From contig CAXHDG010000002.1 of assembly GCA_964015495.1 (NCBI GenBank), forward strand, positions 1,449 to 65,448: a stretch of 64,000 nt of DNA. The letters run 5' to 3'. Both the position numbers and the translations under genes were made by a program. How positions within the stretch are numbered: the first letter of the stretch is position 1; each line of letters starts with the position of its first letter. The notes under the pieces were generated by a model. The model was not told the origin of the DNA and did no database searches. It saw only the letters and a program-made list of their open reading frames with translations. Below are positions 2,076 through 15,918 of this stretch, piece by piece. The DNA comes from an uncultured Magnetococcales bacterium. GTDB taxonomy: Bacteria > Pseudomonadota > Alphaproteobacteria > UBA2136 > JAPKEQ01.

Positions 2076-2092
2076 GTTTAAGCACTCTATAA

Positions 2093-2122
2093 AAGGCGGC
2101 ATATGCCGCCTTTTATTTTTGT
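2093..2122 (+). terminator. Rho-independent terminator or attenuator after the pilin gene
   Basis: GGCGGC-ATAT-GCCGCC hairpin (2095-2110) followed by TTTTATTTTTG. Confidence 0.6.
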
Positions 2123-2144
2123 CTTTTTGTGGTATATTTAAATT

Positions 2145-2414
2145 ATGACTTCAACAAGACCAGTGCCGCGTAATATTGATAAGCCAAACCGTATGGCAGA
2201 ATTTGTTGTCGCTTTTCTTTTAACGTACTATAGCCTTATGTTTTTATTCCATAAGCCTATTATTGCTTTTGGCGCAGGTGTTCTTGCCACATACATTATG
2301 TATAAATTTACAGCAAACAAGCCAGAAGGTATGGCCTTTCGTTGGTGGTACCGGTATTTTTCAATTGGTAAAATGGTTCCCAACCCTAAAAGAGCAAAAA
2401 AATTTGAAATTTAG
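2145..2414 (+). CDS. traL: F-type T4SS protein TraL
   Basis: 89-aa small membrane protein. N-terminal PRNIDKPNR resembles the TraL P-R-x-(I/L)-D-x-P-x-R motif. It has a central TM segment and C-terminal YKFTANKPEGMAFRWWY. It sits between the pilin gene and traE. Confidence 0.6.
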   Translation: MTSTRPVPRNIDKPNRMAEFVVAFLLTYYSLMFLFHKPIIAFGAGVLATYIMYKFTANKPEGMAFRWWYRYFSIGKMVPNPKRAKKFEI

Positions 2415-2469
2415 CCTGATATCGGCGAAACTGATTTTAATAATAAATAAAACTGGAAATCATTGATAC

Positions 2470-3108
2470 ATGGATTTTTTAGCCCGAGCTGGAAGCTCTT
2501 TGGAGAGAGCTCATAGATTAGCTGGTATTTTGCTGGGTGTTATCCTGGTATTGATTGCCATTCTCTTTTATTTTGTAAAAGCAAATTCTGAAATTAAGCT
2601 TGAATATCAACGCCTCAGAGATGAGCTTAAGGTTTATGTGGTGCCTGGTAGTATTTCTGGAATATATCAGCCAACGCAGCCTGATATGTTGCTGCGCGAA
2701 TTTTCATCTTTTGTTGTGCAAAGTTTAAGTACATATACATTTGCCAACCTTGAAATGCAGTATAAAGAGGCAAGAGGTTTTTTTGTTAAGGATTTGAGAA
2801 AGATCACAGACGGCAGTTTTAAATCTAAAATTCTTCAAGTGCGTAATGATGAACAAAGCTCCATTTTTATTGAGGATAGAGACTCCTTTAAAGTTGAAAC
2901 AGTTGGTGATAGCCGCAATTTGGACGATGTTGTTTATAAAGTGACCTTAAGGGGGCTTACGCAGTATATTATTGGTGGTACAGTTGTTGAGGCTGTACCC
3001 GTTCAAATTCAAATGAAGCTTTTGCCATCGTTTATTGGAAGAGACAATCCGTTTGGTTTTGTTTTAAAAGAATATAAAGCGCAAGAGATTAAGAATAAAA
3101 AATCGTGA
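2470..3108 (+). CDS. traE: F-type T4SS protein TraE (VirB8-like), copy 1
   Basis: 212 aa. N-terminal TM (ILLGVILVLIAILFYFV), a periplasmic domain, and a C-terminal NPFGFVL motif. In traL-traE-traK order. Confidence 0.6.
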   Translation: MDFLARAGSSLERAHRLAGILLGVILVLIAILFYFVKANSEIKLEYQRLRDELKVYVVPGSISGIYQPTQPDMLLREFSSFVVQSLSTYTFANLEMQYKEARGFFVKDLRKITDGSFKSKILQVRNDEQSSIFIEDRDSFKVETVGDSRNLDDVVYKVTLRGLTQYIIGGTVVEAVPVQIQMKLLPSFIGRDNPFGFVLKEYKAQEIKNKKS

Positions 3109-3734
3109 TAGCTCTTAAGTTTAGAGGAAAGAATTTTATACTTGGTGCCTTGACGCTTTCTGCTATTGCGCTTGGAACTTTCTCTGTTGTGCTTATTAAA
3201 CGTACTGAAGCTTTGCTTAAATCATTTGAAGATGTGCGCCGTGAAGGAAATGTTTATGTAAGTCCAGGCCCGTATGGTGGGATTTATCAGGTCAATGAGC
3301 GTTACCAGGATGTAAAATATTTTTCTAAATGGATCGTTCGTCAGCTTTATATGTATAGCGATGAGGGGTTAAGAAAGCAATATCTTCAGGTACAGCCTTT
3401 TTTGTCTCCAGAACTTCTTGTGACAGCTGATTATCATTATTTAAGCCTTATTCAAAGAGAGAATGGTGTTAATAGTCATGTTGCTATCAATCATTCTAAA
3501 ATTGAAGTGGATGAGGTTCCGGCCAAAGAAAGGCACAGACAGGGCGAAAAAGATTATTTTGTTATCATTTATGCTGATGTGCAAAAGGTGAGAAGCAAAG
3601 TTATGCAGCAACCCTCTTCTCTACAGATTACAATCCGTTTAAAACCTGTTACTATTACCAACAGTAATCCTTATGGGTTTATTATTTTGAATTATAAAGA
3701 ACAAAAACAAGCGAAAATGGAGTCCTCTACATGA
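3105..3734 (+). CDS. TraE paralog (second tandem copy)
   Basis: 209 aa, clearly paralogous to the preceding ORF: N-terminal TM, VYVSPGPYGGIYQ versus VYVVPGSISGIYQ, C-terminal NPYGFIILNYKEQ versus NPFGFVLKEYKAQ. Its start overlaps the stop of copy 1 by 4 nt. Confidence 0.55.
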   Translation: MIALKFRGKNFILGALTLSAIALGTFSVVLIKRTEALLKSFEDVRREGNVYVSPGPYGGIYQVNERYQDVKYFSKWIVRQLYMYSDEGLRKQYLQVQPFLSPELLVTADYHYLSLIQRENGVNSHVAINHSKIEVDEVPAKERHRQGEKDYFVIIYADVQKVRSKVMQQPSSLQITIRLKPVTITNSNPYGFIILNYKEQKQAKMESST

Positions 3735-4459
3735 TGCGTCTTATGCTAACTAAAACTTTGATTTTAAGTGCTTTTGTATTGGCATCTTTTTCGTCGTTTG
3801 CAGATGTAATAAAATGGTATGGCCCAACGCAAACAATGACGCTTGGTCTCTCTGATGTGGATATTTCACACGTAGAGTTCCCCGAAGAAATTACAAACAT
3901 CACAATTGAAAATAGTGATTATGTGGATGTTCTTGTTGTTGAGGGATACGCAAACAGAGCTTTTCGTATGCGCTCACTTTTGCCTAAAATGGCAACGCGT
4001 GCCTTTTTAACAGGTGGTAGCGGAAATACTTATATTGTTATTTTAACAACGGATGTGCCGTACCGTTCGTTTGTGCGCATTGAGGACGGTAACCGTTTGA
4101 ATGAAATTTCTCGTAAAGTTTCTAAAAAATTCAATACAACAGACTTGCTTCGTGCCATGTCTGAGGATAGTGAACTTCCTGGTGTAACGCGTGAAACGCA
4201 CGTGATTCCAAACTGGTTTAAGGGCGCAGGTCTTAGCTTTGAGCTGTCTGAGGTATGGCAAACGGCAACTCTTACTGGGCTTGTTGTTCATGTGAAAAAT
4301 GACTACCCTGTACCTAATGAAGTGAACTTGCCCGCGATCTCTCTTCCTAAGACAAGTGAGTGGGGAACTTTGCGTAAAGCAGCAATGGAAAATATGCGCC
4401 TTTCAGCAAAAGGAAAAGCCAATGACACAGGCATTCTTTATTTGATGTTTGCACGATAG
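3731..4459 (+). CDS. traK: F-type T4SS protein TraK (secretin/VirB9-like)
   Basis: 242 aa (F TraK is 242 aa). Cleavable signal peptide (LILSAFVLASFSSFA/DV). In the position that follows traE in F-like operons. 4-nt overlap with the upstream gene. Confidence 0.5.
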   Translation: MMRLMLTKTLILSAFVLASFSSFADVIKWYGPTQTMTLGLSDVDISHVEFPEEITNITIENSDYVDVLVVEGYANRAFRMRSLLPKMATRAFLTGGSGNTYIVILTTDVPYRSFVRIEDGNRLNEISRKVSKKFNTTDLLRAMSEDSELPGVTRETHVIPNWFKGAGLSFELSEVWQTATLTGLVVHVKNDYPVPNEVNLPAISLPKTSEWGTLRKAAMENMRLSAKGKANDTGILYLMFAR

Positions 4460-4505
4460 AAGAAAGTTGTGTATACCTTTTGTCTTGATTTAAGGACAAG
4501 GTGAA

Positions 4506-5243
4506 ATGAAATATATTCAAAAACCGATCATTTTCTTTCTGATTGCTTTAAGCATGATAGGGAAGAAAGCCGAAGCTTATGATAGTGCAGTTGCTTATCA
4601 GGCTTGGTATGTGCTCCATCAAATGGAAAAGCAGGCCGCGATTCCTAAGGGACTCCTTATGGCTATGAGTCTTGTAGAGACAGGCCAGGCAATGGAAGGC
4701 AGTATTCTTCCTTGGCCATATACCATTAATACGAATGGTAAAACTCTATATATGACAAGCAAAGATCTTCAGAAAAAATATCCGTATATGGAGCAAGCTG
4801 GTGTGCGATCTATTAGTGTTTCATGGAAAGATAGGTTAACGCATAAGTACTCTTTAAGTGAGTTTCGAGAGCGCATGAACGCGTTTCCTTCTGATACGCC
4901 ACTTAAGTTGAAAATTCATCCATTTAGTAAGCGTTATAAAACTAAAAATGAGGCAGCAAGTGTTGCGAGAAATTTGATTGCCCTAGGGCATACAAACTTT
5001 GATGCTGGCCTTTTGCAGGTCAACTGGATGTATCATGGTGAAAACTTTAATCAAGTAGATCATGTGTTCGACCCATCTAAAAATGTAAAATATGCTGTAA
5101 ATTACCTGAGAAAACACAAAAAAGATCGTGATTGGTGGCGTAGTGTTGGTAGATATCATTCTGGAACTGAAAAATACGCGAAGCGATATATTGAAAACGT
5201 GTGGGAAATGTACCAAAAGGTACATAGGCTACCGAGCGTTTAG
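4506..5243 (+). CDS. Lytic transglycosylase (SLT domain; VirB1/P19/Orf169-like T4SS cell-wall hydrolase)
   Basis: Signal peptide. LLMAMSLVETGQ looks like the catalytic Glu region. AGLLQVNW fits the SLT G-L-M-Q-(I/V) motif. It lies inside the T4SS operon. Confidence 0.6.
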   Translation: MKYIQKPIIFFLIALSMIGKKAEAYDSAVAYQAWYVLHQMEKQAAIPKGLLMAMSLVETGQAMEGSILPWPYTINTNGKTLYMTSKDLQKKYPYMEQAGVRSISVSWKDRLTHKYSLSEFRERMNAFPSDTPLKLKIHPFSKRYKTKNEAASVARNLIALGHTNFDAGLLQVNWMYHGENFNQVDHVFDPSKNVKYAVNYLRKHKKDRDWWRSVGRYHSGTEKYAKRYIENVWEMYQKVHRLPSV

Positions 5244-5251
5244 AGTTTTTT

Positions 5252-7000
5252 ATGCTGAACCTTTCAAAACAACAAGAGCAAGCAATACAGCACCAAGGGC
5301 ATAATCTTGTTCTGGGTTCTGCTGGTACTGGAAAAACGACTGTGCTCTGCAAAAGAGTCCAGCATCTTCTTGATCAGGGCATTGAAGCCCGCGACATTGC
5401 TGTCGTTCTTTTTACTTATAAAGCCTGTTCACATATTAAGCTTGCTCTTCAAGAGTGTTTTGGTGAGCGCGCAGAGCATGTTACCGTTGTCACACTCAGA
5501 GACTTGTGCCTTGAAACATTGAAAAATCTTGAGCTTGACGAGGCTATTGCTGATGGGCAAGACATGAGGCGTATTTTAAGATACGCAATGAAAGATATTG
5601 AATTTTCAGGCACAGTTAAAGAAGCTGAGCATATTATTCGCAAATTTTATGGTATGTCGCATGATCCTCAGGAAAATGAACGTCATGCTGATCTGTATTT
5701 TGCCTATAAAGGTTTCATGAAGCAGTATGACCTGATTGACCGTTTTGCTTTAATTCAGGAATCGTTAAGCCTTATTGAAAGTGGTGAAGCGATAAAGGTG
5801 CCTTATAAGCATATTTTAGTGCCTCATGCTCATGAGGCAACACCGGCGCAATTGCTCTGGCTATTTGCTCATAAAAATTCTGCAGAGCTTACGTTTTTTG
5901 CTGATGATAATCAGCAGCTATTTGCTCATGATGGCGCTGTTGGTGCAAATGTTATCAAAACAGTGACAGAAGAGCATGAATTTAAACTGTTCCGCCTTGA
6001 AACAAACTTTGTGCAAGAGCAAAACATTGGTCAGATGGCAGAAAACTTTGTAGCAGGTGCAAAGGGGTATGTTCACAAGAAGGTTCAGTTCTCTCGCACA
6101 GGAAAAGGGCAGTTTCAGGTGCGTCCGTATAAAACATATGCGGATGAGATTGCTGGACTTCTTAGTCTTGTGCATGAAACATTATCTGATGATAAGAAAA
6201 ATATAGCAATTTTGACGCGCCACGATAGAGAGGCGCAGCGCATAGAGCGTGTGTTAAAAGCTAAAGGTTATGGGGATATGCTTGCATCTAGAGCAACGCC
6301 TATTTGGGAATTTCCTGGTGCTATTATTGTGCTGGATATACTTGATCTATTGTTTGATCAGGCGAGTCCGCAACAACTTATGAATATTCTTACATCATTT
6401 GGCATTAGCCATTCTTTAGCCCAAATTTTATTTAGAGAAGGCATGGTTTCAGAAAAGTGGTTAGCTGAGGGGGCGCCTGTTCCTAAAGGATTAGACCTTC
6501 CTAAAAATGTTTTTTCTGAACTTCAAATGGTAAGGTCTAAGCTTACAAAGCCTTATGAAATTCTTAAAAACCAACAAGCACCTTCTAGAGATGTTTTTAA
6601 ATCTATTGTTTTTGATTTATTGCAAAACCTTGGGGAGGAACATGAGCGTGACGCGCTGATTGCAGCAGAATGTGTTTTAACATTTGAGGGAAGAGTGCGA
6701 GAGCTGCCTTCTGTTGCTAAGAAAATTTTTAGTGACTTCAGTAAATCAAAAAGGATTGTTGTTTCCCCTATTCATGTGAGCCAAGGGCTTTCCTTTGACG
6801 TTGTTATGATTCCTTTTGTATGCGCCGAACGTTTTCCATTTACAGGTTATACATCTTTAGGAAAAAATTTAAACCATGATCGCCGGCTTATGTATCAGGC
6901 CTTAACGCGCTCTAGGCAGCAAATTATTCTTTCTTGCCATGGGGAGGCTTCTCCTTTTGTTGATGAACTTAAGGCACTTTTTGCACAAATAAAGAGTTAA
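5252..7000 (+). CDS. Superfamily-1 DNA helicase (RecD/TraA/UvrD-like)
   Basis: Begins LSKQQEQAIQ... then Walker A GSAGTGKTTV. C-terminal PIHVSQGLSFDVVMIP resembles RecD motif V (TVHKSQGSEF), and YQALTRSRQQIIL resembles motif VI. No relaxase-like N-terminal domain. Confidence 0.55.
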   Translation: MLNLSKQQEQAIQHQGHNLVLGSAGTGKTTVLCKRVQHLLDQGIEARDIAVVLFTYKACSHIKLALQECFGERAEHVTVVTLRDLCLETLKNLELDEAIADGQDMRRILRYAMKDIEFSGTVKEAEHIIRKFYGMSHDPQENERHADLYFAYKGFMKQYDLIDRFALIQESLSLIESGEAIKVPYKHILVPHAHEATPAQLLWLFAHKNSAELTFFADDNQQLFAHDGAVGANVIKTVTEEHEFKLFRLETNFVQEQNIGQMAENFVAGAKGYVHKKVQFSRTGKGQFQVRPYKTYADEIAGLLSLVHETLSDDKKNIAILTRHDREAQRIERVLKAKGYGDMLASRATPIWEFPGAIIVLDILDLLFDQASPQQLMNILTSFGISHSLAQILFREGMVSEKWLAEGAPVPKGLDLPKNVFSELQMVRSKLTKPYEILKNQQAPSRDVFKSIVFDLLQNLGEEHERDALIAAECVLTFEGRVRELPSVAKKIFSDFSKSKRIVVSPIHVSQGLSFDVVMIPFVCAERFPFTGYTSLGKNLNHDRRLMYQALTRSRQQIILSCHGEASPFVDELKALFAQIKS

Positions 7001-7100
7001 GTTGCAAATTTCTGACACATCTACGCCTTTTAACGCTGCGCTGTTCAGTTTTTGTTTGGAAGGTTTCCATAATTCAGTACTCTTGTAAGGTGCAGAAAAA

Positions 7101-9224
7101 ATGGAGTGCATCATGGCCGCAAAAGTAGCGAAAAAAACTTTAAAGAAAATGCCGACTGCAAAGCAGATGGAAGCCTTGAAAAAGGATGATAAAAATTACG
7201 TTTCCGCTTTAGAGGATAGCGTCACATTTTTAGATGGCCGCCAACAGGCTATTTATGCCATTGCGCGCAAGTATCACCTTGATCGTGATGAGCTCTATCA
7301 AGAAGCCTACGAAACTCTTCTGACTTGTTTGAGGGATTTTACGCCAGTGTTTCAGCAAGCATCTGGCAAAATTATTTCTGTGCAATTTACAACATTCTTT
7401 GGGAGCCGCCTTGAAACGCGTGCCATGGAGCTTAGAAACCGCGACCCTGAATATCAGGCGCGTGCAGCTTATATTAATAATATGAGCGATGATGAAAAAG
7501 AAGCTTTTAGAAAAGATCCCCCACTTTTGGTTCAGCACCTCGATCATGAGCTTAATATGCATGATGGCCTTGAAAATGAGGTTTATGAATCTCGTGAAGG
7601 TAGTAAGACAGATGTGGCTATGAAAATTCTCCGTGATAGTTTCTTTGAGAAAAAAATTGAAGAGCTTGTTGAGAGAGAAACAGATGAGAAAAAACGTGCG
7701 GCGCTTATGTATGTTAAGGTTGGTGGCGTTTATAACTTCCAAGAGATTGCTTACCATTTTGGCGTAACAGATTCACGCGCAAGCCAAGTTATGAATGAGC
7801 TTATGGACGCTTTTTATATTCAGCGTATGATTGATGGTAGCATTGAAAGTGTTGCCCATGATTTTGAAAAACTTAAATTTAACGATAAGCGTGTTATTCG
7901 TCTTGTAAGCGAGGCGGTTAAAAACTCTGACGCTGAGCGTGGAAAGCTTATTGGAGAAACATTTAACGGTATTAAGGGCCTTGATAAGGCTCTGCAAGCG
8001 GCCTCTTCTGAGAAGGATCAGGCAAAAATTGAAGAGAAAAAGCCTGAAAAGAAAAGAGCAAGCCAGTACTCGCCACCTTCTTACGAGGATATTTTTACGG
8101 ACGAAGATGATGATAAATACCCCCTTGTCGGTGTTGAAGTGCGTTCTATTTCTGCCCTTAAATTTTTGGATATGCCATTTAGACCTCTAGAAATCGAAGA
8201 AAACTTTGATCAGTTTTTAGAAACATTTGATGCAAAAAATAATAGCCTTTACCCTGCCCTTGTAACAGAGGACGGCGTTGTGCTTGATGGAGAGTGGCGC
8301 TTGCGTGCTGCAAAGGAGCAGGGCGTTGATTCATATGTATGCATTACGCGTCGTGTGAGAGATCCTTTAGAGCAAAAAATCCTTCGTATTAAAATTAATC
8401 ATGCGATTTACCCGCCCAAGAAAATTGATTTGTACTACGCGATTGGTGTTCTTTCAGATGAGGGAATGTCTCAGCAAAAAATAGCAGATGCACTGGGTAC
8501 AAGTCGTACCAATGTTCTTGTTTATGTGAAAGTGCGTGATAAGGCTTCCCTTAAAATGCGCGCTTTGTATGAAGATGGCCTTATCCAAATTACAAATGCA
8601 AGCAACTGCGCAGACCTTGAGGAAGAAGAACAGGACCGTATTGCAGCGTTTATTCGCAAATACGGGATTGTTTGGTCTAAGGGCGCAAAGTTTAACGAGC
8701 TGTTTGCCGCGATACATAGCCGCAAAATTGACAGCCTTGAAGCGAAGCTAAGTAAAACGCTACCAGATCAAAAATCTGTAGAGGTTTCATCTTCAGCGCT
8801 TATGCCTCAGTCTGATAACAAGCTTGTATCTTCTTTGCAGAGTAGTATTAAGACATATGAGCAAAGCCTGAAAGATAACGAAGTTTGGGCGGCTCAGCGT
8901 GAGGGTGTAATTACAAACCTACGCGAAGAGCTAGATAAAGTGAAGGCTGATTCAGAAGGTCTTAAAAAAGAGCTAGATGCTGCAGAGCTTATGAAGTTTG
9001 GCAATCCTAAAGCAATTGAAGAAGAACTGGAAAACCTGAAACGCTTTTATGGTATTACTGAGCGTCTTTCTGGTGCGACGCATAGCCTTAAAAAAGCAAG
9101 TCGAGATATCAATAAGGTACCACTAAAGCGCAAGCAAGTTGTTGAGATTGATGAGCTTATGGACTCGCTAGAAGAAGCTCTCAATACATTTAGGGTAACT
9201 GTAGCAAGCCATAAAAAGGCATAA
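7101..9224 (+). CDS. Fusion protein: N-terminal sigma-70-family-like domain (regions 2 and 4), ParB/Srx-like N-terminal domain with HTH, and a C-terminal coiled coil
   Basis: Residues ~45-110 (QQAIYAIARKYHLDRDELYQEAYETLLTCLRDFTPVFQQASGKIISVQFTTFFGSRLETRAMELRNR) resemble sigma region 2. ALMYVKVGGVYNFQEIAYHFGVTDSRASQVMNELMDAF resembles region 4.2 (..VSESRVSQI..). Residues ~330-420 contain the ParB box-like LDGEWRLRAAKEQG (compare GHRR(L/W)RAA). An HTH follows (MSQQKIADALGTSRTNV). The last ~200 aa are E/K-rich coiled coil. Confidence 0.5.
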   Translation: MECIMAAKVAKKTLKKMPTAKQMEALKKDDKNYVSALEDSVTFLDGRQQAIYAIARKYHLDRDELYQEAYETLLTCLRDFTPVFQQASGKIISVQFTTFFGSRLETRAMELRNRDPEYQARAAYINNMSDDEKEAFRKDPPLLVQHLDHELNMHDGLENEVYESREGSKTDVAMKILRDSFFEKKIEELVERETDEKKRAALMYVKVGGVYNFQEIAYHFGVTDSRASQVMNELMDAFYIQRMIDGSIESVAHDFEKLKFNDKRVIRLVSEAVKNSDAERGKLIGETFNGIKGLDKALQAASSEKDQAKIEEKKPEKKRASQYSPPSYEDIFTDEDDDKYPLVGVEVRSISALKFLDMPFRPLEIEENFDQFLETFDAKNNSLYPALVTEDGVVLDGEWRLRAAKEQGVDSYVCITRRVRDPLEQKILRIKINHAIYPPKKIDLYYAIGVLSDEGMSQQKIADALGTSRTNVLVYVKVRDKASLKMRALYEDGLIQITNASNCADLEEEEQDRIAAFIRKYGIVWSKGAKFNELFAAIHSRKIDSLEAKLSKTLPDQKSVEVSSSALMPQSDNKLVSSLQSSIKTYEQSLKDNEVWAAQREGVITNLREELDKVKADSEGLKKELDAAELMKFGNPKAIEEELENLKRFYGITERLSGATHSLKKASRDINKVPLKRKQVVEIDELMDSLEEALNTFRVTVASHKKA

Positions 9225-9304
9225 AATAACAAAGTGTCAGTTGTTTAGGGGTTGTTTTCTCTTGTCTCAGGCCATAAACTTTAGGATGAGTGTAATTTAA
9301 GGGT

Positions 9305-11245
9305 ATGGCTATGTTCTCTAAGCTATTTTATGTGTTTGCCATTTTTATGGGTCTTTTCGCTTCTGTTGTAAGTTATGCGCAGGAGGAGATGGATCCTGCA
9401 AACCACACTGTTGTAGACCCTGTAAATAGCAGGGATACAACCACTTTTGTGCCAACATCAGCCTCATTAGATTCTACAACGTCTGCAAAATACGGTGTTC
9501 TTGGTAATATTGGTCGTTCTGTCACAGCTGGTGGTTCCACGCCGGCAGCTGGCTTTCAGTTGAATGATGGAGACTTGGATACTCTAACAGGTGGCAGCGT
9601 TGATGCTGCAAGGGAGAGAAACGAGCTTCTTGGCTGTAGTACTATGGACTACCATGCTTCTATGATTACTTCTTTGAATAATAATGAAACAGATATTGAA
9701 GAGTATGTGGATTCTCCTATGGGGACATTTATGCTTACAACGCTCCTTAATAGCCCTGCCATTGCAGCAACATTTAATAGTGTTGAGGCTTTTGGTGCTA
9801 AGCGTGTTCAGCTTATGCAAGACCGCTGTCAAGCTATGCAGTCAGATGCAACTGTTAGCGCTGAAGGTATGATGCGCTGGCAAGCTCTACAAGCTTGCGT
9901 TGCAGCCAATACGGAGGCGGCTGCCGGGGGAAGCACTGGTGTGTCTTCAATGAGCCGCAGGAGTGATAGTGAGGCGGTTGCTGTGGCTATGGCATACAGA
10001 GCTTGTCTTTATGGGTCTCAAGGTCAGGAAGATAGATTTGGTACTGACCCTATTGAAGCTTTTGGCGCTTCAGTTTCTCCAGGTTCTGTTGCTGCTTCAT
10101 TAGAAGGGGCAATGAAAGAGGATGTTTTAGAATTTGATGGTGATACGCCAAGTCTTTGGACAGGGACATTGTTCCATGCGCTTCGAAATACAGCGTTTTG
10201 TGAAATGGATGGCGCAGAAAGTGGAGATAGCCCAGATGTAGATACTACACTGGCTCATCACTGCTCAATTATGGCAATGATACCTAATGTAAGGTGGTGT
10301 GCGGGTTCTGAAATGATGGATCGTAGCTGCCTGAATGATAGTAAGGTTCGCCTCTCAAGGGCAACGTTTACGCCTCAGCAAGTGTTTGACCTTCTGTATG
10401 CGTTTACAGATAGGGAAGTAAGTTATAGAGATCAGTTTGCCAGGTCTCTGGTTGGGCGTGCCGGTGAGGGTGTTGCTATTGAAATTGCTAAAAAAGGTGA
10501 AACCCTTTATTCGCCAATGGTTTTAAGACCTGTAAGTGAGGCGATTGTTGGTGGAAGAGCCGATGAGGTTCGTCTCTTTACTGGCTGTCTTGCAAACGGC
10601 GCTACAGCTTTGGGTACTGCCGAAGATTTTAGTACATATATTACCCGTGCAATTGCCAACAGTACAAATTTAAGGGATGATTTACCTGTTTCATTTAACC
10701 CAAGTTTAACTTTAGTTGGTTTGCAGAGTGAGCTGGAAACTGCTATTCCTGTTCCAACAACTTTTGCTATGAATGATATATTGGATTTAACTCCTGGTGG
10801 TGAAGTGGGTGGCCAGCGTTCTGCCACTGTTAGCCCTGATGGATCAGGAGGTATGTATAATGTCGGTACATTTGGCTGGCTTGCCGCTAACGCAACGCGC
10901 TGTGTGATGAAACATCAAATGAGACTGACGTTGATGGATCATATTAGGATTGGCCAGCTTCCACAGGAAGAGCGCGTGGGTGCTTTGCTTGCTGTTCGTA
11001 TGAATATCGCTCAGCTTTCAACGGAGCTTTTATACAGGTTCCTAAAAGAGAAACTTATGTTTGCGCAACTGGATATGCAAAACGGAGGTTCGGTGAGCAG
11101 TCGTCGTGCCACGCCGCCGCATGTACTTGCATCTCTTGAAACCTTGGTAAAAATCATTGAGGGGCAGATTGAGACAATGCAGACATTGAAGTCAAGCCAG
11201 CATACAATGTCTGGACTTTTGAGTAATATTCGTTCTGTGCAATAG
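9305..11245 (+). CDS. Secreted cysteine-rich protein, tentatively TraH/TraN-like (mating-pair or pilus assembly component)
   Basis: Signal peptide (FAIFMGLFASVVSYA/QE). About 10 Cys in the mature part. Weak resemblance to the F TraH N-region (GCSTMDYH versus TraH GCGGIDAY; TAGGS versus ATGGS). Located between the T4SS blocks. Confidence 0.3.
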   Translation: MAMFSKLFYVFAIFMGLFASVVSYAQEEMDPANHTVVDPVNSRDTTTFVPTSASLDSTTSAKYGVLGNIGRSVTAGGSTPAAGFQLNDGDLDTLTGGSVDAARERNELLGCSTMDYHASMITSLNNNETDIEEYVDSPMGTFMLTTLLNSPAIAATFNSVEAFGAKRVQLMQDRCQAMQSDATVSAEGMMRWQALQACVAANTEAAAGGSTGVSSMSRRSDSEAVAVAMAYRACLYGSQGQEDRFGTDPIEAFGASVSPGSVAASLEGAMKEDVLEFDGDTPSLWTGTLFHALRNTAFCEMDGAESGDSPDVDTTLAHHCSIMAMIPNVRWCAGSEMMDRSCLNDSKVRLSRATFTPQQVFDLLYAFTDREVSYRDQFARSLVGRAGEGVAIEIAKKGETLYSPMVLRPVSEAIVGGRADEVRLFTGCLANGATALGTAEDFSTYITRAIANSTNLRDDLPVSFNPSLTLVGLQSELETAIPVPTTFAMNDILDLTPGGEVGGQRSATVSPDGSGGMYNVGTFGWLAANATRCVMKHQMRLTLMDHIRIGQLPQEERVGALLAVRMNIAQLSTELLYRFLKEKLMFAQLDMQNGGSVSSRRATPPHVLASLETLVKIIEGQIETMQTLKSSQHTMSGLLSNIRSVQ

Positions 11246-11300
11246 CCTTCTTATTGTCCTCCTGGAGGGGGAGGCGCTTGTTAGATGAGTTTTGCGTTTT

Positions 11301-11334
11301 AAAGGGGTTGTAGATTGCAATCCCTTTTTCTTTG
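11301..11334 (+). terminator. Probable rho-independent terminator
   Basis: GGGGTTG-tagatt-gCAATCCC imperfect hairpin (G-T wobbles) followed by TTTTTCTTTG, ~60 nt after the stop codon at 11245. Confidence 0.35.
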
Positions 11335-11423
11335 AGGTATTCTCATTGTGTAATTTTATGTTTTTAGCTTAAAAGAAGGCGCTTTTTGTGTACCGTTTTT
11401 CTTTGTTTATGGAGAAGTTTTAG

Positions 11424-12899
11424 ATGACTGATGGATATGAAGGACAGCAACCCTCAAGTGGTAAAGAAGGGGTACAGCTTGCTGTTGAGCGTTTTAATGA
11501 GCTTCCTTCTGCTGGTAAATATGCCTTAATTGGTGTTGGGTTGTTTTTTGTTTTTGTCATTCTTTTCCGTGGTGGTGGCGGGGCTGAGCCTACTCGCCCT
11601 GCTGTTAAGCAAGAAGTTTCGCGCGCAAGTATTCAAAATTTAGAGAATAAATCACCTGAAAACGGATCGCAGTTTACAACAGTTGATGCTGAAAGGGATT
11701 CGTTATATCGAGGATTTGTTTCGCAGCAGCAAATTGCTCTTTCTGGCTTGCGTGATGATGTAAAAACGCAAATGGACCAAAGAGATTCTCAGTTTTTAGA
11801 AATTCAAAACAGGGTGATTGAACAAACCAGTAAACTTGATGAGATGATTCGTACGTTTGAAGTTCAAATTCGCTCTATGCAAGAAGATAATGTGGAATTT
11901 AGAGAGCAAATGAGCCGCCTTGCCGAGGAAGCGCAGCGCCAAGGTGTGCGCCAAGGTATGGGAATGGGCGGTACACCTGAACGCCGTAGGCAGAGGGTAT
12001 CCCAAACCCCTTTAGGTAGTGGCGGTATGGCCGGAGGAGGAATCAATGGCCAGCCGCTTATCCCAGGAATTATTGGAGGGGCGACCGGCGGTAATGTTCG
12101 TATTGATCAGCACGGAAATGTAATTGGACCTGTGGTGCAGGAAGTGATCTATGAAGACCCTAACCCGTTTTTACCACCTTTAGGTTTTATTAAGGGTACG
12201 CTCCTTAACGGTGTTGATGCGCTTGCTGGTGCAGGTGTTGCAGCCCCTGCGCTTGTGCGTATGTCGGGGACGTATAAAACCGCTATGAACTCTACAGTAA
12301 GCTTAGATGGCTGCATGATGCTTGTAGAATTTGAAGGGGAGCTTTCAACGGAAAGAGCGCTTGGAAAGCCAAGCCAAATGACATGTGTTTATCCTGACCG
12401 TGGTGCTGTAACTTATGGTGTTACAGGGTATGTTGTTGATGCTAAAGATGGTATTGTTGGTGTGCCTGGTGTGTTTTATGAGGGTGATCCTAGTAAAATT
12501 GCTGCGGTATTTGCGGCAGAATTTCTTGCAGGTGTTGCCTCTCTTGTTGAAGAGAGCCAAATTACAAGAACATCAGACCTTGAAGGAAATGAGCAGACCA
12601 CTGTTACCGGAAGTCAGGTTCAGGCACAGCTTTCAAGTGGTGTAAATGATTCAGTTCAAACTTTGCGTGACTACCTCGTGGAGCGCCTAGACCGTGTTCA
12701 GTCCTTTATTAGACTGGATGCAACGCGAGATATTCACATTGTAATGCTTAGCGGTATTGAGCTTCGAGGGGCTGGTAGCCCATGGACATTGCTATTTGAA
12801 GGTGTTGCATTGGATGCTGCTAGAGCTAAAGCTGAAAATGCTGCTGCGCAGGCAAATGATAAGCAGGCTGCTGCCCAGTCACAAAACGTAAATTACTAA
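11424..12899 (+). CDS. traB: F-type T4SS protein TraB (VirB10-like)
   Basis: 491 aa (F TraB is 475 aa). N-terminal cytoplasmic segment, one TM (LIGVGLFFVFVILF), a coiled-coil region, a Gly/Pro-rich stretch, a C-terminal beta-rich TrbI/VirB10-like domain and a Q/A-rich tail. Followed by traV and traC. Confidence 0.6.
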   Translation: MTDGYEGQQPSSGKEGVQLAVERFNELPSAGKYALIGVGLFFVFVILFRGGGGAEPTRPAVKQEVSRASIQNLENKSPENGSQFTTVDAERDSLYRGFVSQQQIALSGLRDDVKTQMDQRDSQFLEIQNRVIEQTSKLDEMIRTFEVQIRSMQEDNVEFREQMSRLAEEAQRQGVRQGMGMGGTPERRRQRVSQTPLGSGGMAGGGINGQPLIPGIIGGATGGNVRIDQHGNVIGPVVQEVIYEDPNPFLPPLGFIKGTLLNGVDALAGAGVAAPALVRMSGTYKTAMNSTVSLDGCMMLVEFEGELSTERALGKPSQMTCVYPDRGAVTYGVTGYVVDAKDGIVGVPGVFYEGDPSKIAAVFAAEFLAGVASLVEESQITRTSDLEGNEQTTVTGSQVQAQLSSGVNDSVQTLRDYLVERLDRVQSFIRLDATRDIHIVMLSGIELRGAGSPWTLLFEGVALDAARAKAENAAAQANDKQAAAQSQNVNY

Positions 12900-12923
12900 A
12901 AATAATAAACAAGGTATAACACA

Positions 12924-13337
12924 ATGAAACAAATCAGAATTGTCGGTGCAATCCTTCTTGTGTCGGTTTCTATCTCTGGGTGTAAATATTACGGAAGCGC
13001 TGTTCCTCCAGAGTACCCCGTTTCAATGGATGATGCTTTGGATGTGGCAACGGATAGAAACACAACAATGGGCGGAATTCAAAGACCTATTGTACGTAAA
13101 CTAACTCGTCCTGCTATTGATCAGCCAACATATGTGCCAGAAAAAGAACTTGCAGTTGTTGCTCCCCCAAAAACGCTTCTTGTGTGGTCATACCCTCATG
13201 TAACGGAAGATAACACACGTGTGTTTGGTAATTGGGCGACTATCTTTATTAATGACAGGTACGAGTGGATTCCACCAAGCAATGAAGTTGCCGCAGAAGA
13301 AATGACATTTGGAGGGGGCTATGGGGCTTCTCGATAA
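12924..13337 (+). CDS. traV: F-type T4SS lipoprotein TraV (VirB7-like)
   Basis: 137 aa. Lipoprotein signal with lipobox ISGC. In the F-like traB-traV-traC order. Confidence 0.5.
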   Translation: MKQIRIVGAILLVSVSISGCKYYGSAVPPEYPVSMDDALDVATDRNTTMGGIQRPIVRKLTRPAIDQPTYVPEKELAVVAPPKTLLVWSYPHVTEDNTRVFGNWATIFINDRYEWIPPSNEVAAEEMTFGGGYGASR

Positions 13338-15918
13338 AGATGTTCATGCGCCAATACGTCCTAACCGTATCGGTGAACAGCTTCCCTATTTTGAGTACGA
13401 GGATAAGGCAAACTCTGATTACCATGGCTATTACCTTTTAAAGGATGGCTCTCTTGGTATTGCTTGGAAAGTTGCAATTCCACCTTCTTATTCTTATGAC
13501 CAAGGTTATATACAGACAAACAATGAATTTAGAACGTTTGTTGAAAGTGTGCCTATGGGGTATGAAGTACAGATTACTGTCACTTCACACAATAACCTTA
13601 CAGAAAAAATGAAAAGATACCTGTCTCTAGAGTCAGGGACTGAAAAAGGTAAAATTCTTAGACATTCACGCGCAGAAAAACTTCTAGATGCTGGGTTTAA
13701 TGGTTATCAAGTGAGTGATGCCAGTTTTACAATGCTCCGTGATACTTACATGGTGATTACATTAAGATCTCCAACCTTTATTGAGAATCTTGGTCTTCTT
13801 GCGACTGTTATGGAATCTTTGTTCCAGCTATTTGCAACACTCTTTAGTGTGGTAGGCCTTGATCTCTCTCAAATGCTTGATGGCTTCCTTACAAAAATGG
13901 TGAGAGAGAACATGGCTGAGTTTTCTGAATCAGTTATGTCGGCAGAATCTACCCTGAATGAAATGTTTAGCATTGGATCTGGTTCTCGAATGGATCCGGC
14001 AGAGCTTAAAGACCACTATTGGACAATGTATGCACCATCTTACAAAGAGCCTGGTCAAAAAATTTCTGTTGATCCTCATGTTGATTTAAATGATCAAATG
14101 TTCCCGCTCCCTATTGAGCAGGACTTTGACATGATTAAACTTGGGAGCGACTACCACGGCCTTGTGATGATGGCGATTATGCCAGATAGTGTTGGCCCTG
14201 ATTACTTGGGTGTAATTCGTCGTACGCTTATTACTCAGTACACATTCTTTGTAAACATTGCACAGGCTAACCAAATGCTAGAGCGAGCTGCACTTTCTGT
14301 ATCTTCTGCGCTGCGTAGCCGTGTGGCAACGATGTTCTCAAAAGAAGAAGCTGCTGCTTTTGCTGAAGAAGCCTCGCAGGTTAAATTCCGTATGTTTGAT
14401 GGACGTAAAATTCTCTACATTATGTGCGGTGTGATTGTGCATGGTAAATCTCGTAAAGAAGTTGAGAACAAAATGCTCCGCATGAACTCAACGTTTAAAA
14501 AACTTTCTGTTGTCCCTGATATGGAGCGTACAATGTCGCTTCAAGGTATTAGTTATAGTTTCCCGCTTGCATGGAGAAATAACTACACTAAACCTTTTGC
14601 AAGAACGCGCCGTGTTCTTTCGGATGATCTGACAGATCTTTTGCCATTCCACGGACACTGGGGCGGGCATGAATACCCACAAGCTGTTTATGTGAACAGA
14701 GATGGTGAGATTACATTCTTTGACCATACTTCGCCTGACTTTGTGAACTGGCACTACGCCATTACAGGTACATCTGGTTCTGGTAAATCTTTTGCAGTTG
14801 TTGATTTAACGCTTCAGCTATTTGCTGCTGGTGTTGAAAAACAGTTTCTTATGACCATTAAAGATGACTACGATCGTTTTGCGCAAACTATGGGTAAACT
14901 TATCATTATTGATCTTGATAATGTTTCGTCTTGTATTAACCCGTTTGCAGGCCCTATTACAAAACACCGCCTTCAGCAATGGTCTACAGCTCTTGAGCTT
15001 ATGATCCAAAAGGGTAGTGATGTTGAGGCAAGCATTATGGAAAGCCGCCTTACCGAGCAAATTGTGCAATATGCATATGAACTCGTTCCTGAAGGTGATG
15101 TTCTTCGCCCGACATGGATTAGAGAGGCTTACTTTAAATTCCCGTATGTGAGTGAAGAGCAGCGTGCAATTGGATTTAGCCATGCAGAGCTTGTTGGTTC
15201 TTACTGTGATGACGGTATTTATGGAAAACTATTTGATGGGTTCCCTTCTATTACAGAGGATGACAAACTGGTTGTCTTTAACCTGCAAAACGTATTAAGT
15301 GAAAAAATTTCGGATGTTATTATTAACGCGATTTTCACCATGCTTGATAACGTTATGTATATGGGTGATCGCGCAGCCAAGAAGCATTTGCTTGTGGATG
15401 AGATGATTACCATGATTACCTCTAAGGGTGGTGCGCAGGTTGCAAACCAGCTTAAGCGTGCCTTCCGTACATATCGTTCCCTTAACTGTATGTGTGGTAT
15501 TGCTTCTCAGAACGAGGAAGACCTCACAACAGAAGTTGGCCAGGCGATTATTGGTAACATTACAAAACGTATGGTTCTTAAACCACGTAAAGAGATGATA
15601 CCTCTTCTTATGGAAACTTTGGGGCTTCGAAGTGAGCGCCACCAGGCTAATATTGAATCTCTTGAAACAAAGCCTGGTTTTTATAGTGAATTTTACCTTA
15701 TGTCTCCTTCGGGCGAGGTTGTCTGTCGTTTGATTACAGATAAGCTAACCTATGCCTTGGCCACAACAACGCCAGAGGATGTATCTGAGATTAAGAGATT
15801 GAGGCAAGATAATGGTGGTGATTGGTGGAAAGCAACGCTACAATTTAGCCAAATTTACCCACATGGTGTACGTGCAGCAATTAAAGCCGCACGACAGCAA
15901 GAAGGAGACGCTGCATAA
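13309..15918 (+). CDS. traC: F-type T4SS ATPase TraC (VirB4 family)
   Basis: 869 aa (F TraC is 875 aa). Walker A ITGTSGSGKSF matches F TraC CGTSGAGKT. DLDNVSSCINPFAG matches F TraC ...RFNPFAN. Confidence 0.8.
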   Translation: MEGAMGLLDKDVHAPIRPNRIGEQLPYFEYEDKANSDYHGYYLLKDGSLGIAWKVAIPPSYSYDQGYIQTNNEFRTFVESVPMGYEVQITVTSHNNLTEKMKRYLSLESGTEKGKILRHSRAEKLLDAGFNGYQVSDASFTMLRDTYMVITLRSPTFIENLGLLATVMESLFQLFATLFSVVGLDLSQMLDGFLTKMVRENMAEFSESVMSAESTLNEMFSIGSGSRMDPAELKDHYWTMYAPSYKEPGQKISVDPHVDLNDQMFPLPIEQDFDMIKLGSDYHGLVMMAIMPDSVGPDYLGVIRRTLITQYTFFVNIAQANQMLERAALSVSSALRSRVATMFSKEEAAAFAEEASQVKFRMFDGRKILYIMCGVIVHGKSRKEVENKMLRMNSTFKKLSVVPDMERTMSLQGISYSFPLAWRNNYTKPFARTRRVLSDDLTDLLPFHGHWGGHEYPQAVYVNRDGEITFFDHTSPDFVNWHYAITGTSGSGKSFAVVDLTLQLFAAGVEKQFLMTIKDDYDRFAQTMGKLIIIDLDNVSSCINPFAGPITKHRLQQWSTALELMIQKGSDVEASIMESRLTEQIVQYAYELVPEGDVLRPTWIREAYFKFPYVSEEQRAIGFSHAELVGSYCDDGIYGKLFDGFPSITEDDKLVVFNLQNVLSEKISDVIINAIFTMLDNVMYMGDRAAKKHLLVDEMITMITSKGGAQVANQLKRAFRTYRSLNCMCGIASQNEEDLTTEVGQAIIGNITKRMVLKPRKEMIPLLMETLGLRSERHQANIESLETKPGFYSEFYLMSPSGEVVCRLITDKLTYALATTTPEDVSEIKRLRQDNGGDWWKATLQFSQIYPHGVRAAIKAARQQEGDAA

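What the first reader, a model, noticed from the sequence alone, without database searches (positions are those of the whole stretch)
7101..9224. Single ORF fusing a sigma-70-like domain to a ParB/Srx-like domain
The N-terminal ~250 aa carries segments resembling sigma-70 region 2 and region 4.2 (GVTDSRASQVMNELMDAF versus the canonical VSESRVSQI). The middle carries a ParB-box-like GEWRLRAAKEQG with a following HTH. The C-terminus is a long coiled coil. ParB N-domains are CTP-dependent DNA clamps or nucleases. This is a candidate element-specific regulator or partition factor for the T4SS island.
Basis: partly seen in the sequence, partly recalled or inferred. Interest (0 to 1): 0.75.

Follow-up and report, generated by a model that had tools for sequence, protein, structure and literature searches.

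The report
Sigma-like factor fused to ParB-like protein
A real, conserved 707-residue gene joins a very divergent sigma-factor-like module to a ParB-like DNA-binding module and a coiled-coil tail; it sits inside a chromosomal F-type secretion/pilus gene cluster of uncultured alphaproteobacteria and is probably that cluster's own transcription factor.

Summary
The ORF at 7101-9224 (+) is real and is not an assembly fusion. More than 120 full-length homologues (39-89% identity, 683-797 aa) from independent assemblies share the architecture. All 22 related loci with at least 12 kb of sequence keep the same neighbouring genes.

- **ParB part (about residues 330-555):** well supported. The family profile matches Spo0J at E 4e-7 and Foldseek matches Noc/ParB/KorB at 4e-6.
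- **C-terminus:** a long helical coiled coil.

The sigma-like module has no standalone relative among 1.84 billion representative proteins. Short conserved boxes (CTGWCAG, CCACAC) mark promoters next to the gene in every locus.

Best reading: a locus-dedicated, autoregulated transcription factor that couples RNA polymerase recruitment to ParB-type DNA anchoring. The closest working analogue is the BisD ParB-clamp activator of ICEclc.

No evidence was found for a mobile island, a ParA partner or a parS palindrome. In the window's own protein two pocket arginines are lost, so NTP binding is doubtful. This is a new variant of a known kind.

The parts
7101..9224 (+). Whole ORF, 707 aa: sigma-like module, helical spacer, ParB-like N-domain with HTH, and coiled coil
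7242..7520 (+). Sigma region-2-like domain (about residues 48-140). It contains DELYQEAYETLLTCLRDF (63-80), a family-specific beta-hairpin insert (83-93), and FTTFFGSRLETRAMELRNRD (96-115).
7518..7544 (+). Linker motif PPLLVQHLD (residues 140-148), of which L142-H146 and D148 are invariant, between the two sigma-like domains; function unknown
7641..7835 (+). Sigma region-4-like domain (about residues 181-245), with HTH FQEIAYHFGVTDSRASQVMNELMDAF (213-238, nt 7737-7814); most of its positions are invariant across the family
   Evidence: TIGR02937 alignment reaches model position 158 of 165. NF009175 sigma factor matches 184-240. Invariant columns.
7842..8036 (+). Four-helix segment (about residues 248-312) with no assignable family, followed by a low-confidence linker
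   Evidence: no Pfam or NCBIfam hit
8088..8360 (+). ParB/Srx-type N-domain (about residues 330-420), with Box II DGEWRLRAA at nt 8286-8312. D396, G397 and R400 are invariant.
   Evidence: Profile vs PDB: Spo0J 1vz0 at 4.4e-7 and 6sdk at 7.8e-7. Foldseek: Noc, ParB and KorB at 4e-6 to 1e-3. Column counts.
8361..8765 (+). ParB/KorB-type DNA-binding domain (about residues 421-555), with the HTH at nt 8466-8534. The ENxxR-equivalent stretch ILRIKINHA (nt 8379-8405) lacks the glutamate.
   Evidence: Pfam KorB 7.2e-4 and HTH_ParB
8817..9218 (+). C-terminal coiled coil or helical hairpin (residues 573-706), the presumed dimerisation module
   Evidence: AF2 helices 573-633, 636-672 and 677-706
7001..7075 (+). 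Upstream control region. It holds the conserved box GTTGCAAATTTCTGACAC (7001-7018), a degenerate inverted copy CTGTTCAGTTTTT (7041-7053), and a -10-like CCATAAT (7067-7073).
   Evidence: The box is found within 330 bp upstream of the gene in 22 of 22 loci.
9234..9279 (+). Control region of the next gene: box GTGTCAGTTG (9234-9243) and a -10-like GCCATAAAC (9271-9279)
   Evidence: Equivalent sites occur in L003, L007 and L012.
1716..15918 (+). Surrounding conserved F-type T4SS-like cluster, in this order:
- TrbC/VirB2 pilin 1716-2075
- small membrane ORF 2145-2414
- two TraE-like ORFs 2470-3734 (assignment inferred, no family hit)
- TraK-like ORF 3731-4459 (assignment inferred, no family hit)
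- SLT transglycosylase 4506-5243
- UvrD-like helicase 5252-7000
- this gene 7101-9224
- variable secreted protein 9305-11245
- TraB/TrbI 11424-12899
- lipoprotein 12924-13337
- TraC/VirB4 13309-15918
   Evidence: synteny; TraX next to the pilin gene in L033

Best explanation
The gene encodes a lineage-specific, dimeric transcription factor dedicated to the F-type T4SS-like cluster in which it sits.

Its N-terminal module is a highly divergent sigma-70-family unit with sigma-2 and sigma-4 domains, resembling ECF sigma factors. This module most likely binds RNA polymerase core and reads promoter elements. Its ParB-like N-domain plus HTH, held as a dimer by the C-terminal coiled coil, would anchor the protein on short conserved boxes (CTGWCAG, CCACAC) at the cluster's promoters. 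These include its own promoter, which implies autoregulation, and that of the variable genes just downstream. Promoter recognition and DNA tethering would then be combined in one polypeptide.

- **Shown:** the architecture, its conservation, the synteny, and the conserved boxes.
- **Inferred:** RNA polymerase binding, which module reads which box, whether the effect is activation or repression, and any nucleotide switch.
For: 1. The gene is real and conserved. 140 homologues were found; the 120 listed are nearly all full length, and the family alignment has 49% mean column identity.
3. The 'QE' of region 2.2 and most of the region-4.2 HTH are invariant. The N-terminal module is the most conserved part, at 60% against 49% mean column identity. 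This fits a conserved partner such as RNA polymerase.
4. The ParB fold plus HTH is supported.
5. The gene is always embedded at the same position in the T4SS-like cluster.
6. The box CTGACA/TGTCAG is strongly enriched in the cluster's intergenic DNA. 45 of 85 hits fall in 7% of the sequence (binomial p 2e-29), and it ranks first of 180 composition-matched 6-mers.
7. The box is present upstream of the gene in 22 of 22 loci, often as an inverted pair spaced 23-24 or 34-36 bp apart, a difference of one helical turn.
8. A second promoter with the same box sits downstream: CCACAC-N9-11-CTGACA-N17-CATTAT, 61 nt before a start codon.
9. No other DNA-binding regulator was detected in the cluster.
10. 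There is precedent. BisD is a ParB-like CTP clamp with an added activation domain that switches on ICEclc transfer promoters (PMC12409273).
Against: - The sigma assignment is remote. The window protein scores 28.5 bits against the TIGR02937 cutoff of 42.9.
- The N-terminal family profile finds no PDB sigma factor. It also finds no ordinary sigma factor among 1.84 billion representatives.
- hhalign against E. coli RpoE is not significant, at probability 0.2. Foldseek E-values are all 0.1 or higher.
- The conserved -35/-10-like elements (CTGACA-N17-CATTAT) are close to housekeeping sigma-70 consensus. They do not require a dedicated sigma factor.
- A box overlapping the -35 element is also the classic geometry of a repressor.
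- It is unknown which module binds which box.
- There is no experimental evidence of any kind, because all carriers are uncultured MAGs.
Confidence: 0.5

Rival explanations
1. KorB/VirB-type regulator. The ParB-like module is the working part: a DNA-binding, possibly sliding, repressor or anti-silencer of the T4SS operons. The sigma-like module no longer acts as an initiation factor. It would serve as an extra DNA-binding or polymerase-contacting accessory, for example to trap or exclude polymerase.
For: - The ParB fold is the best-supported part, and the KorB DNA-binding domain (PF08535) is hit.
- In the high-GC relatives the conserved box overlaps a -35-like hexamer. The promoters themselves look like the housekeeping type.
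- ParB-family regulators of transfer genes are established (KorB, VirB, BisD), as summarised in PMC12704722.
Against: - The sigma-like module is the most strongly conserved part of the protein. It keeps the region-2.2 QE pair and a region-4.2 HTH in which most positions are invariant, which is hard to explain for a vestige.
- In the window's low-GC clade the box lies about 40-50 bp upstream of the -10 element. That is an activator-like position.
Confidence: 0.25
2. DNA-processing or DNA-handling factor of the secretion machine. Together with the adjacent UvrD-like helicase it would bind, and perhaps nick or organise, the DNA substrate of the T4SS. This resembles the ParA/ParB homologues needed for DNA secretion by the gonococcal genetic island (from my own knowledge) or ParB-fold nucleases. 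The first reader's 'partition factor' idea is a milder form of this.
For: - The gene is always immediately downstream of a UvrD-like helicase, inside the T4SS gene order between TraK-like and TraB.
- No relaxase or coupling protein was recognised in the cluster, so the DNA-processing functions are unassigned.
- PhoH-like and PD-(D/E)XK genes end the cluster.
Against: - No ParA was found, and no parS- or oriT-like conserved palindrome within 10 kb on either side.
- The conserved boxes lie at promoter positions next to -10-like elements, not at a single origin-like site.
- A sigma-like module has no known role in DNA processing.
Confidence: 0.12
3. Nucleotide-gated ECF-type sigma factor. The ParB-like part would not be a DNA anchor. 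It would be a C-terminal regulatory extension, as in ECF41/ECF42-type sigma factors (from my own knowledge), sensing an NTP and releasing or blocking the sigma domains. This would replace an anti-sigma factor.
For: - No anti-sigma-like gene is adjacent.
- ParB folds fused to other domains bind CTP, ATP or GTP. A phage ParB-Sigma70 fusion with Box II GEHRVRA binds ATP (PMC12704722), and the window has GEWRLRA.
- GxxR is invariant in the family.
Against: - The ParB HTH recognition helix is strongly conserved, with R469, N471, Y475 and K477 invariant. That argues for real DNA binding.
- The window's lineage has lost two pocket arginines, R399W and R435A, yet keeps the whole protein.
Confidence: 0.1
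4. Artefact: two adjacent genes joined by a sequencing or assembly error, or a non-coding ORF.
For: None found.
Against: The same single ORF of 683-797 aa occurs in more than 120 clusters from independent projects. Nearly all cover 95-99% of the query. It also occurs in 32 genomes.
Confidence: 0.01

Closest known systems
BisD of ICEclc (Pseudomonas putida), a ParB-like CTP clamp carrying a transcription-activation domain (PMC12409273)
   Same: A ParB-like N-domain plus HTH is fused to a non-ParB module that drives transcription of conjugation/T4SS genes. It is an orphan with no ParA, is dimeric, and sits inside the transfer gene region.
   Different: - BisD has its ParB part at the N-terminus and a unique helical activation domain that works with BisC. 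Here the added module is sigma-like and N-terminal, and no BisC-like partner was seen.
- BisD keeps both GxxR and ENxxR and has 23-bp palindromic bisS sites. Here ENxxR lacks the glutamate and no long palindrome was found.
- No direct sequence comparison with BisD was run.
Phage ParB-CTPase-Sigma70 fusion uvig_297896_22 (Kaljevic et al., PNAS 2025, PMC12704722)
   Same: It has the same two domain types in one polypeptide. Box II is similar (GEHRVRA against GEWRLRA here). It shows that such fusions exist and can bind a nucleotide, in that case ATP.
   Different: - In the phage protein the ParB fold is N-terminal (Box II at residues 75-81). Here the sigma-like module comes first and ParB sits at 330-555, followed by a coiled coil.
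- The context is a gut phage rather than a chromosomal T4SS cluster.
- A pattern scan of IMG/VR found no relatives of the family.
KorB (RK2), VirB (Shigella) and Noc: ParB-family proteins repurposed for gene regulation or other non-partition roles
   Same: Shared ParB N-domain plus HTH fold (Foldseek hits to 8qa9/8qa8 KorB and 7nfu Noc). All regulate, or sit next to, conjugation or virulence genes without a partition role.
   Different: None of them carries a sigma-like module. They retain the CTP-pocket motifs and have defined palindromic sites. tblastn of the ParB part against 72,556 plasmids found nothing.
Group 4 (ECF) sigma factors, including those with C-terminal extensions
   Same: Two-domain sigma-2/sigma-4 layout without region 3. 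The best structural matches are ECF sigma factors. A conserved box at the gene's own promoter is typical of ECF autoregulation (from my own knowledge).
   Different: - It scores below the family thresholds.
- It has a beta-hairpin insert in sigma-2, a long linker carrying the conserved PPLLVQHLD motif, and a 460-residue DNA-binding extension.
- No canonical sigma factor is retrieved by the family profile.
Phage T4 late transcription: sliding clamp gp45 tethering sigma factor gp55 (from my own knowledge)
   Same: Conceptually, a promoter-recognition subunit is coupled to a DNA-encircling, sliding protein.
   Different: In T4 these are separate proteins with a PCNA-like clamp. Here it would be a covalent fusion to a ParB-type clamp. 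Clamp behaviour is unproven for this family.

Membership tests
Sigma-70 family (group 4 / ECF-like) | Sigma-2 domain fold (regions 2.1-2.4) | tested here: met
Sigma-70 family (group 4 / ECF-like) | Sigma-4 domain with the region-4.2 HTH | tested here: inconclusive
   The TIGR02937 alignment spans residues 48-235 to model positions 11-158 of 165, and NF009175 matches 184-240. However, the Pfam Sigma70_r4 best stretch in this protein lies in the ParB HTH at 443-472, and hhalign misregisters this region.
Sigma-70 family (group 4 / ECF-like) | Score above the curated family threshold, or significant profile match to known sigma factors | tested here: not met
   - 28.5 bits against the 42.9 cutoff.
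- Pfam Sigma70_r2 hits 1 of 42 members.
- The N-terminal profile finds no sigma factor in PDB or among 1.84e9 representatives.
- hhalign probability 0.2; Foldseek E 0.1 or higher.
Sigma-70 family (group 4 / ECF-like) | Binds RNA polymerase core and directs promoter-specific initiation | not testable with these tools
   Only indirect evidence: invariant Q67/E68 at the region-2.2 position, and very high conservation of the module.
Sigma-70 family (group 4 / ECF-like) | Cognate bipartite promoter, usually including its own promoter | tested here: inconclusive
   Conserved CTGACA-N17-CATTAT-type elements lie upstream of the gene and of a downstream operon. They resemble housekeeping promoters, and in the window's clade the box lies about 40-50 bp upstream of the -10 element.
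ParB/Srx superfamily (ParB-CTPase fold with HTH) | ParB N-domain fold followed by an HTH DNA-binding domain | tested here: met
   Profile vs PDB: Spo0J at 4.4e-7 and 7.8e-7 over positions 341-473. Foldseek: Noc, ParB and KorB at 4e-6 to 1e-3, probability 1.0. TIGR00180 hits 30 of 42 members, best 2.9e-10.
ParB/Srx superfamily (ParB-CTPase fold with HTH) | GxxR phosphate-binding motif (Box II, GERRxRA) | tested here: met
   D396, G397 and R400 are present in 42 of 42 members. The family consensus is DGERR. The window has DGEWR, with the first arginine replaced by W in 3 of 42.
ParB/Srx superfamily (ParB-CTPase fold with HTH) | ENxxR motif (catalytic and nucleotide-pocket residues) | tested here: not met
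   The position of the glutamate is L, I or V in the family. N433 is kept. R435 is present in 39 of 42 but is A in the window (alignment register).
Canonical ParABS partition system | Adjacent ParA ATPase, 16-bp palindromic parS, and a ParB C-terminal dimerisation domain | tested here: not met
   No ParA among neighbours. No palindrome with arms of 7 bp or more is shared between loci. The C-terminus is a long coiled coil, not ParB_C.
Canonical ParABS partition system | CTP binding/hydrolysis and clamp closure | not testable with these tools
   Nucleotide specificity of ParB folds cannot be predicted from sequence (PMC12704722, section headings).
BisD-type ParB-clamp transcription activator | ParB part with GxxR and ENxxR, a separate activation domain, partner BisC, and bisS palindromes | not tested
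   No direct sequence comparison with BisD was made. By architecture it works like this kind of protein but is not a member: domain order and the added module differ.

The most novel reading that the evidence does not exclude
A sigma factor that rides on a ParB-type clamp. In most family members, which keep GERR and R435, the dimer would close around DNA in an NTP-dependent way at or near the CTGWCAG boxes. It would then carry its covalently attached sigma module along the T4SS locus, delivering RNA polymerase to successive promoters. That would be a cellular, single-polypeptide counterpart of the phage T4 gp45-gp55 system, and a direct fusion of the BisD principle to the initiation factor itself. 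The window's own variant (W399, A435) would be a natural version that has lost the nucleotide switch.
Probability: 0.15. Interest if true: 0.9.

Novelty: new variant of a known kind. Interest (0 to 1): 0.6.

Why it matters
ParB-fold proteins have recently been recognised as nucleotide-switched DNA clamps reused for gene regulation (KorB, VirB, BisD). Sigma factors are the universal promoter-recognition subunits. A conserved natural fusion of the two has not been described in this order or context. It would show a new way of restricting transcription initiation to one locus, by tethering the initiation factor to the DNA it controls.

The family also offers a clean test system:
- The sigma-like module has no free-standing relatives.
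- The regulon appears to be one gene cluster.
- Natural variants exist with and without two arginines at positions predicted, by alignment to ParB, to line the nucleotide pocket.

It also points to an uncharacterised, apparently vertically kept F-type T4SS or pilus system in a widespread uncultured alphaproteobacterial clade. That system has no recognisable relaxase or coupling protein and has a hypervariable secreted-protein region under the same control elements.

Tried and rejected
- **Pfam on the single protein:** only sub-threshold HTH-type hits. The Sigma70_r4 best stretch fell in the ParB HTH, so it cannot be used as evidence for the sigma part.
- **N-terminal family profile against PDB sequences:** no sigma factor found.
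- **N-terminal profile against 1.84 billion representatives:** only family members or fragments.
- **hhalign of the N-terminal alignment against E. coli RpoE:** probability 0.2.
- **Search for RpoE homologues to build a diverse ECF profile:** returned only homologues at least 86% identical, so it was useless for that purpose and not used further.
- **Foldseek of the N-terminal model:** no hit at E 1e-3 or better, although sigma factors lead the list.
- **Whole-protein Foldseek:** sigma hits only at E 0.14-0.87.
- **Long direct or inverted repeats in 1-21.5 kb:** nothing convincing.
- **Perfect palindromes with arms of 7 bp or more shared between loci:** none, so a canonical parS was rejected.
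- **Relatives in IMG/VR viral contigs:** none.
- **Relatives in PLSDB plasmids by tblastn, either half of the protein:** none.
- **Defence-system models:** only generic UvrD/GajB similarity for the neighbouring helicase.
- **tRNA genes as island borders:** none.
- **Literature search for ECF-ParB fusions:** nothing.
- **Lineage:** I could not assign it beyond 'uncultured Alphaproteobacteria'. Record titles are inconsistent, for example 'Magnetococcales', 'Pseudomonadaceae' and 'Blastochloris viridis' MAGs.
- **Promoter logic:** I did not resolve which conserved box belongs to which DNA-binding module, nor whether the promoters are read by the housekeeping sigma factor.
Full report
**1. The observation**

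The window contains a single 707-codon ORF at 7101-9224 on the + strand.
- the region-4.2-like FQEIAYHFGVTDSRASQVMNELMDAF at residues 213-238;
- the Box-II-like DGEWRLRAA at 396-404;
- an HTH at 456-478.

An AlphaFold2 model built on a 42-sequence family alignment has mean pLDDT 79.6. It ends in three long helices (573-633, 636-672, 677-706), which form the coiled-coil tail.

A search of 5.8 billion proteins returned 140 homologues. The 120 listed are 683-797 aa long, with one partial sequence, and 39-100% identical. Nearly all cover 95-99% of the query, and they come from ENA, NCBI, JGI and Logan assemblies. Thirty-two species-representative genomes carry the gene. The fusion is therefore genuine and old. 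It is not a frameshift or an assembly join.

**2. What the three parts are**

*ParB part.* A profile of the family matches solved Spo0J/ParB chains at E 4.4e-7 and 7.8e-7 over positions 341-473. Foldseek of the full model gives Noc, ParB and KorB at E 4e-6 to 1e-3 with probability 1.0. NCBIfam TIGR00180 hits 30 of 42 members.

Column counts across the 42 members show:
- P385, G392, D396, G397, R400, A404, G408, R429 and N433 are invariant or nearly so. The GxxR motif is therefore kept, with family consensus DGERR.
- The glutamate of the ENxxR motif is replaced by L, I or V throughout the family.
- The window's own lineage (3 of 42 sequences) has both R399W and R435A.

Nucleotide binding is therefore possible for the family but doubtful for this particular protein. 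A recent survey stresses that specificity cannot be predicted from sequence (PMC12704722).

*Sigma part.* The evidence here is consistent but remote.

In favour:
- TIGR02937 (sigma70-ECF) matches residues 48-235 of the window protein at E 1e-6, but at 28.5 bits against a cutoff of 42.9.
- It hits 38 of 42 members, best E 1.5e-12.
- In Foldseek, 10 of the top 11 hits are sigma factors, though all at E 0.1 or higher.

Against:
- The N-terminal profile finds no sigma factor in PDB.
- hhalign against E. coli RpoE is not significant.
- A profile search of 1.84 billion representatives returns only 16 proteins, all family members or fragments.

I conclude that residues about 48-245 have a sigma-2 plus sigma-4 layout of the ECF kind. 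The module is very divergent and exists only within this fusion. It carries a beta-hairpin insert in sigma-2 (83-93) and a highly conserved linker motif, PPLLVQHLD (140-148). It is the most conserved part of the protein, at 60% against 49% mean column identity, and includes the QE pair at the region-2.2 position.

Residues 248-312 form a helical segment with no assignable family.

**3. Context**

The gene lies inside a T4SS-like cluster with these recognisable parts:
- a TrbC/VirB2 pilin, followed by a strong terminator-like hairpin;
- an SLT transglycosylase and a UvrD-like helicase;
- TraB/TrbI (NF010289 at 3.6e-14) and TraC/VirB4 (TIGR02746 at 3.9e-54);
- a lipoprotein;
- PhoH-like and PD-(D/E)XK genes at the end.

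A relative also has TraX next to the pilin gene.

In every related locus with enough flank the order is the same: upstream ORF, TraE-like, TraK-like, SLT, UvrD, this gene, a variable region, then TraB and TraC. This holds although the proteins are only 25-69% identical. The TraE-like and TraK-like labels are inferred from size, position and topology, since no family model hit those ORFs. The stretch between this gene and TraB varies from about 2 kb here to about 9 kb elsewhere and encodes poorly conserved proteins; the one in this window has an N-terminal signal-peptide-like sequence.

The rest of the window (21-64 kb) is housekeeping: MurJ, MutS, AdoHcy hydrolase, NAD-GDH, NadE and AddAB. There are no tRNA genes. 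No integrase, relaxase or coupling protein appeared among the ORFs scanned. Carrier contigs reach 1.35 Mb. I therefore see a chromosomal, clade-wide locus, not a demonstrable mobile island.

**4. Conserved cis elements**

Both HTH recognition helices are highly conserved across the family, so I searched the intergenic DNA of 22 loci for shared words. The half-site [C/G]TGTCAG, or CTGACA[C/G] on the other strand, stands out:
- 45 of its 85 occurrences fall in the 7% of sequence that is intergenic, with binomial p 2e-29.
- CTGACA ranks first among 180 composition-matched hexamers, at 36% intergenic against a median of 6%.
- All 22 loci have a copy within 330 bp upstream of the matched start of the gene.

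In the higher-GC relatives the arrangement is CCACACCCC-CTGTCAG-TTTT, then 23-24 or 34-36 bp (centre to centre), then CTGACAC, then 17-18 bp, then a TGc-TAnnnT or CATnnT element. The two spacings differ by one helical turn, which suggests a protein bound on one face of the DNA.

In the window's low-GC clade, GTTGCAAATTTCTGACAC (7001-7018) lies 40 bp upstream of a -10-like CATAAT in the relatives and 50 bp upstream in the window (7068-7073). The window also has a degenerate inverted copy at 7041-7053.

A further site lies just downstream of the gene. In the window this is GTGTCAGTTG at 9234-9243, ahead of the next ORF.

In eight relatives a well-conserved promoter-like unit, CCACAC-N9-11-CTGACA-N17-CATTAT, sits about 52-63 nt (mostly 61 nt) before the start codon of an operon about 4 kb downstream. 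CCACAC also recurs in other promoters of the cluster.

No long palindrome is shared among loci, so there is no canonical parS.

**5. Mechanism**

The most economical reading is a locus-dedicated, autoregulated transcription factor with three working parts:
- the sigma-like module contacts RNA polymerase and promoter DNA;
- the ParB-HTH part anchors the protein at the conserved boxes;
- the coiled coil makes it a dimer.

The architecture, conservation, synteny and boxes are shown. Polymerase binding, the assignment of boxes to modules, the sign of regulation and any nucleotide switch are inferred. I put this reading at about 0.5.

The main rival (0.25) is a KorB/VirB-like repressor or anti-silencer in which the sigma-like part is accessory. 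The -35/-10-like elements are close to housekeeping consensus, and one box overlaps the -35 element in some clades.

A DNA-processing role together with the adjacent UvrD helicase (0.12) and a nucleotide-gated sigma factor without DNA anchoring (0.1) remain possible.

**6. Comparison with what is known**

- **BisD of ICEclc** is the closest working analogue. It is a ParB-like CTP clamp with an extra activation domain. It loads at bisS sites, spreads over about 50 kb and activates 11 transfer promoters together with BisC (PMC12409273).
- **A ParB-Sigma70 domain combination** has been reported once, in a gut-phage protein that binds ATP (PMC12704722). That protein has the ParB fold first, with Box II at residues 75-81. 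The present family has no relatives in IMG/VR or in plasmids.
- **Literature searches** for ECF-ParB fusions found nothing.
- **Membership.** The protein is a member of the ParB/Srx superfamily by fold, though not of the ParABS partition family. It is only a probable, very divergent member of the sigma-70 family.

**7. Verdict**

It is a new variant of a known kind, namely ParB-fold regulators of transfer genes and sigma factors with large extensions. Interest is moderate to high, at 0.6. The most novel reading still open is a sigma factor carried on a ParB clamp, with probability about 0.15.

Noticed in passing
window 1716-20607, and loci L003-L033: A complete-looking but minimal F-type T4SS or pilus cluster is conserved in order across an uncultured alphaproteobacterial clade. 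Its parts are a VirB2-type pilin, TraE-like and TraK-like ORFs (inferred, no family hit), SLT, TraB, a lipoprotein and TraC, plus TraX in L033. No relaxase, coupling protein or VirB11 was recognised. Four genes (SLT, UvrD-like helicase, the sigma-ParB gene and variable genes) are inserted between the TraK-like gene and TraB.
   Followed up: partly
window 9305-11245; L033 12200-19658; L004-L008 about 12.2-20.8 kb: The region between the sigma-ParB gene and TraB is hypervariable in length (about 2 to 9 kb) and in sequence (23-30% identity or none). Here it encodes a protein with an N-terminal signal-peptide-like sequence and no family match. It lies directly behind a conserved TGTCAG box, so it may encode effectors or adhesins under the same control.
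   Followed up: partly
window 8295-8297 (W399) and 8403-8405 (A435): Two arginines conserved in 35 and 39 of 42 family members (R399 of GERR, and R435) are both replaced, by W and A. The W399 count is 3 of 42 and the A435 count is 3 of 42, and I take these to be the same three sequences, the window's lineage. This looks like a coupled loss in the putative nucleotide pocket.
   Followed up: partly
loci L011, L013, L016, L017, L020, L026, L028, L030 (intergenic regions listed): A second conserved box, CCACAC(C) or TTTCCCACA, recurs in most promoters of the cluster in the higher-GC relatives, sometimes next to CAAAAG. It could be the site of the second DNA-binding module. It was not analysed statistically.
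   Followed up: no
window 27728-27763 and 28237-28248: Outside the cluster, an inverted pair AAAACTGACAG / TTGTCAGTTGTT lies near the 3' end of a staphylococcal-nuclease-like gene and ahead of a 166-aa ORF. A CTTGTCAGTTTTT copy lies inside that nuclease gene. Both resemble the cluster boxes. Overall counts of the hexamer in the window are at chance level (28 seen, about 31 expected), so this may be coincidence.
   Followed up: no
window 2089-2116, 11301-11327, 19720-19747: Three strong terminator-like hairpins with 12-bp stems divide the cluster into units. They lie after the pilin gene, after the variable secreted protein, and after the PhoH-like gene.
   Followed up: no
window 2470-3108 and 3105-3734: Two adjacent, overlapping TraE-like paralogues, about 210 aa each with a single N-terminal membrane helix. 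tblastn maps both onto overlapping positions in most relatives, whereas L033 also has two genes.
   Followed up: no
window 18861-19712 and 39882-40916: There are two PhoH-like ATPase genes. A short one ends the T4SS-like cluster, followed by a PD-(D/E)XK nuclease gene at 19828-20607. A canonical one lies in the housekeeping region.
   Followed up: no
loci L001-L032 record titles: Carrier MAGs are deposited under inconsistent names, including 'Magnetococcales', 'Pseudomonadaceae', 'Pseudomonas fluorescens', 'Blastochloris viridis' and 'MarineProteo1'. They share this highly specific cluster, so they probably belong to one alphaproteobacterial lineage that is mislabelled in public records.
   Followed up: no
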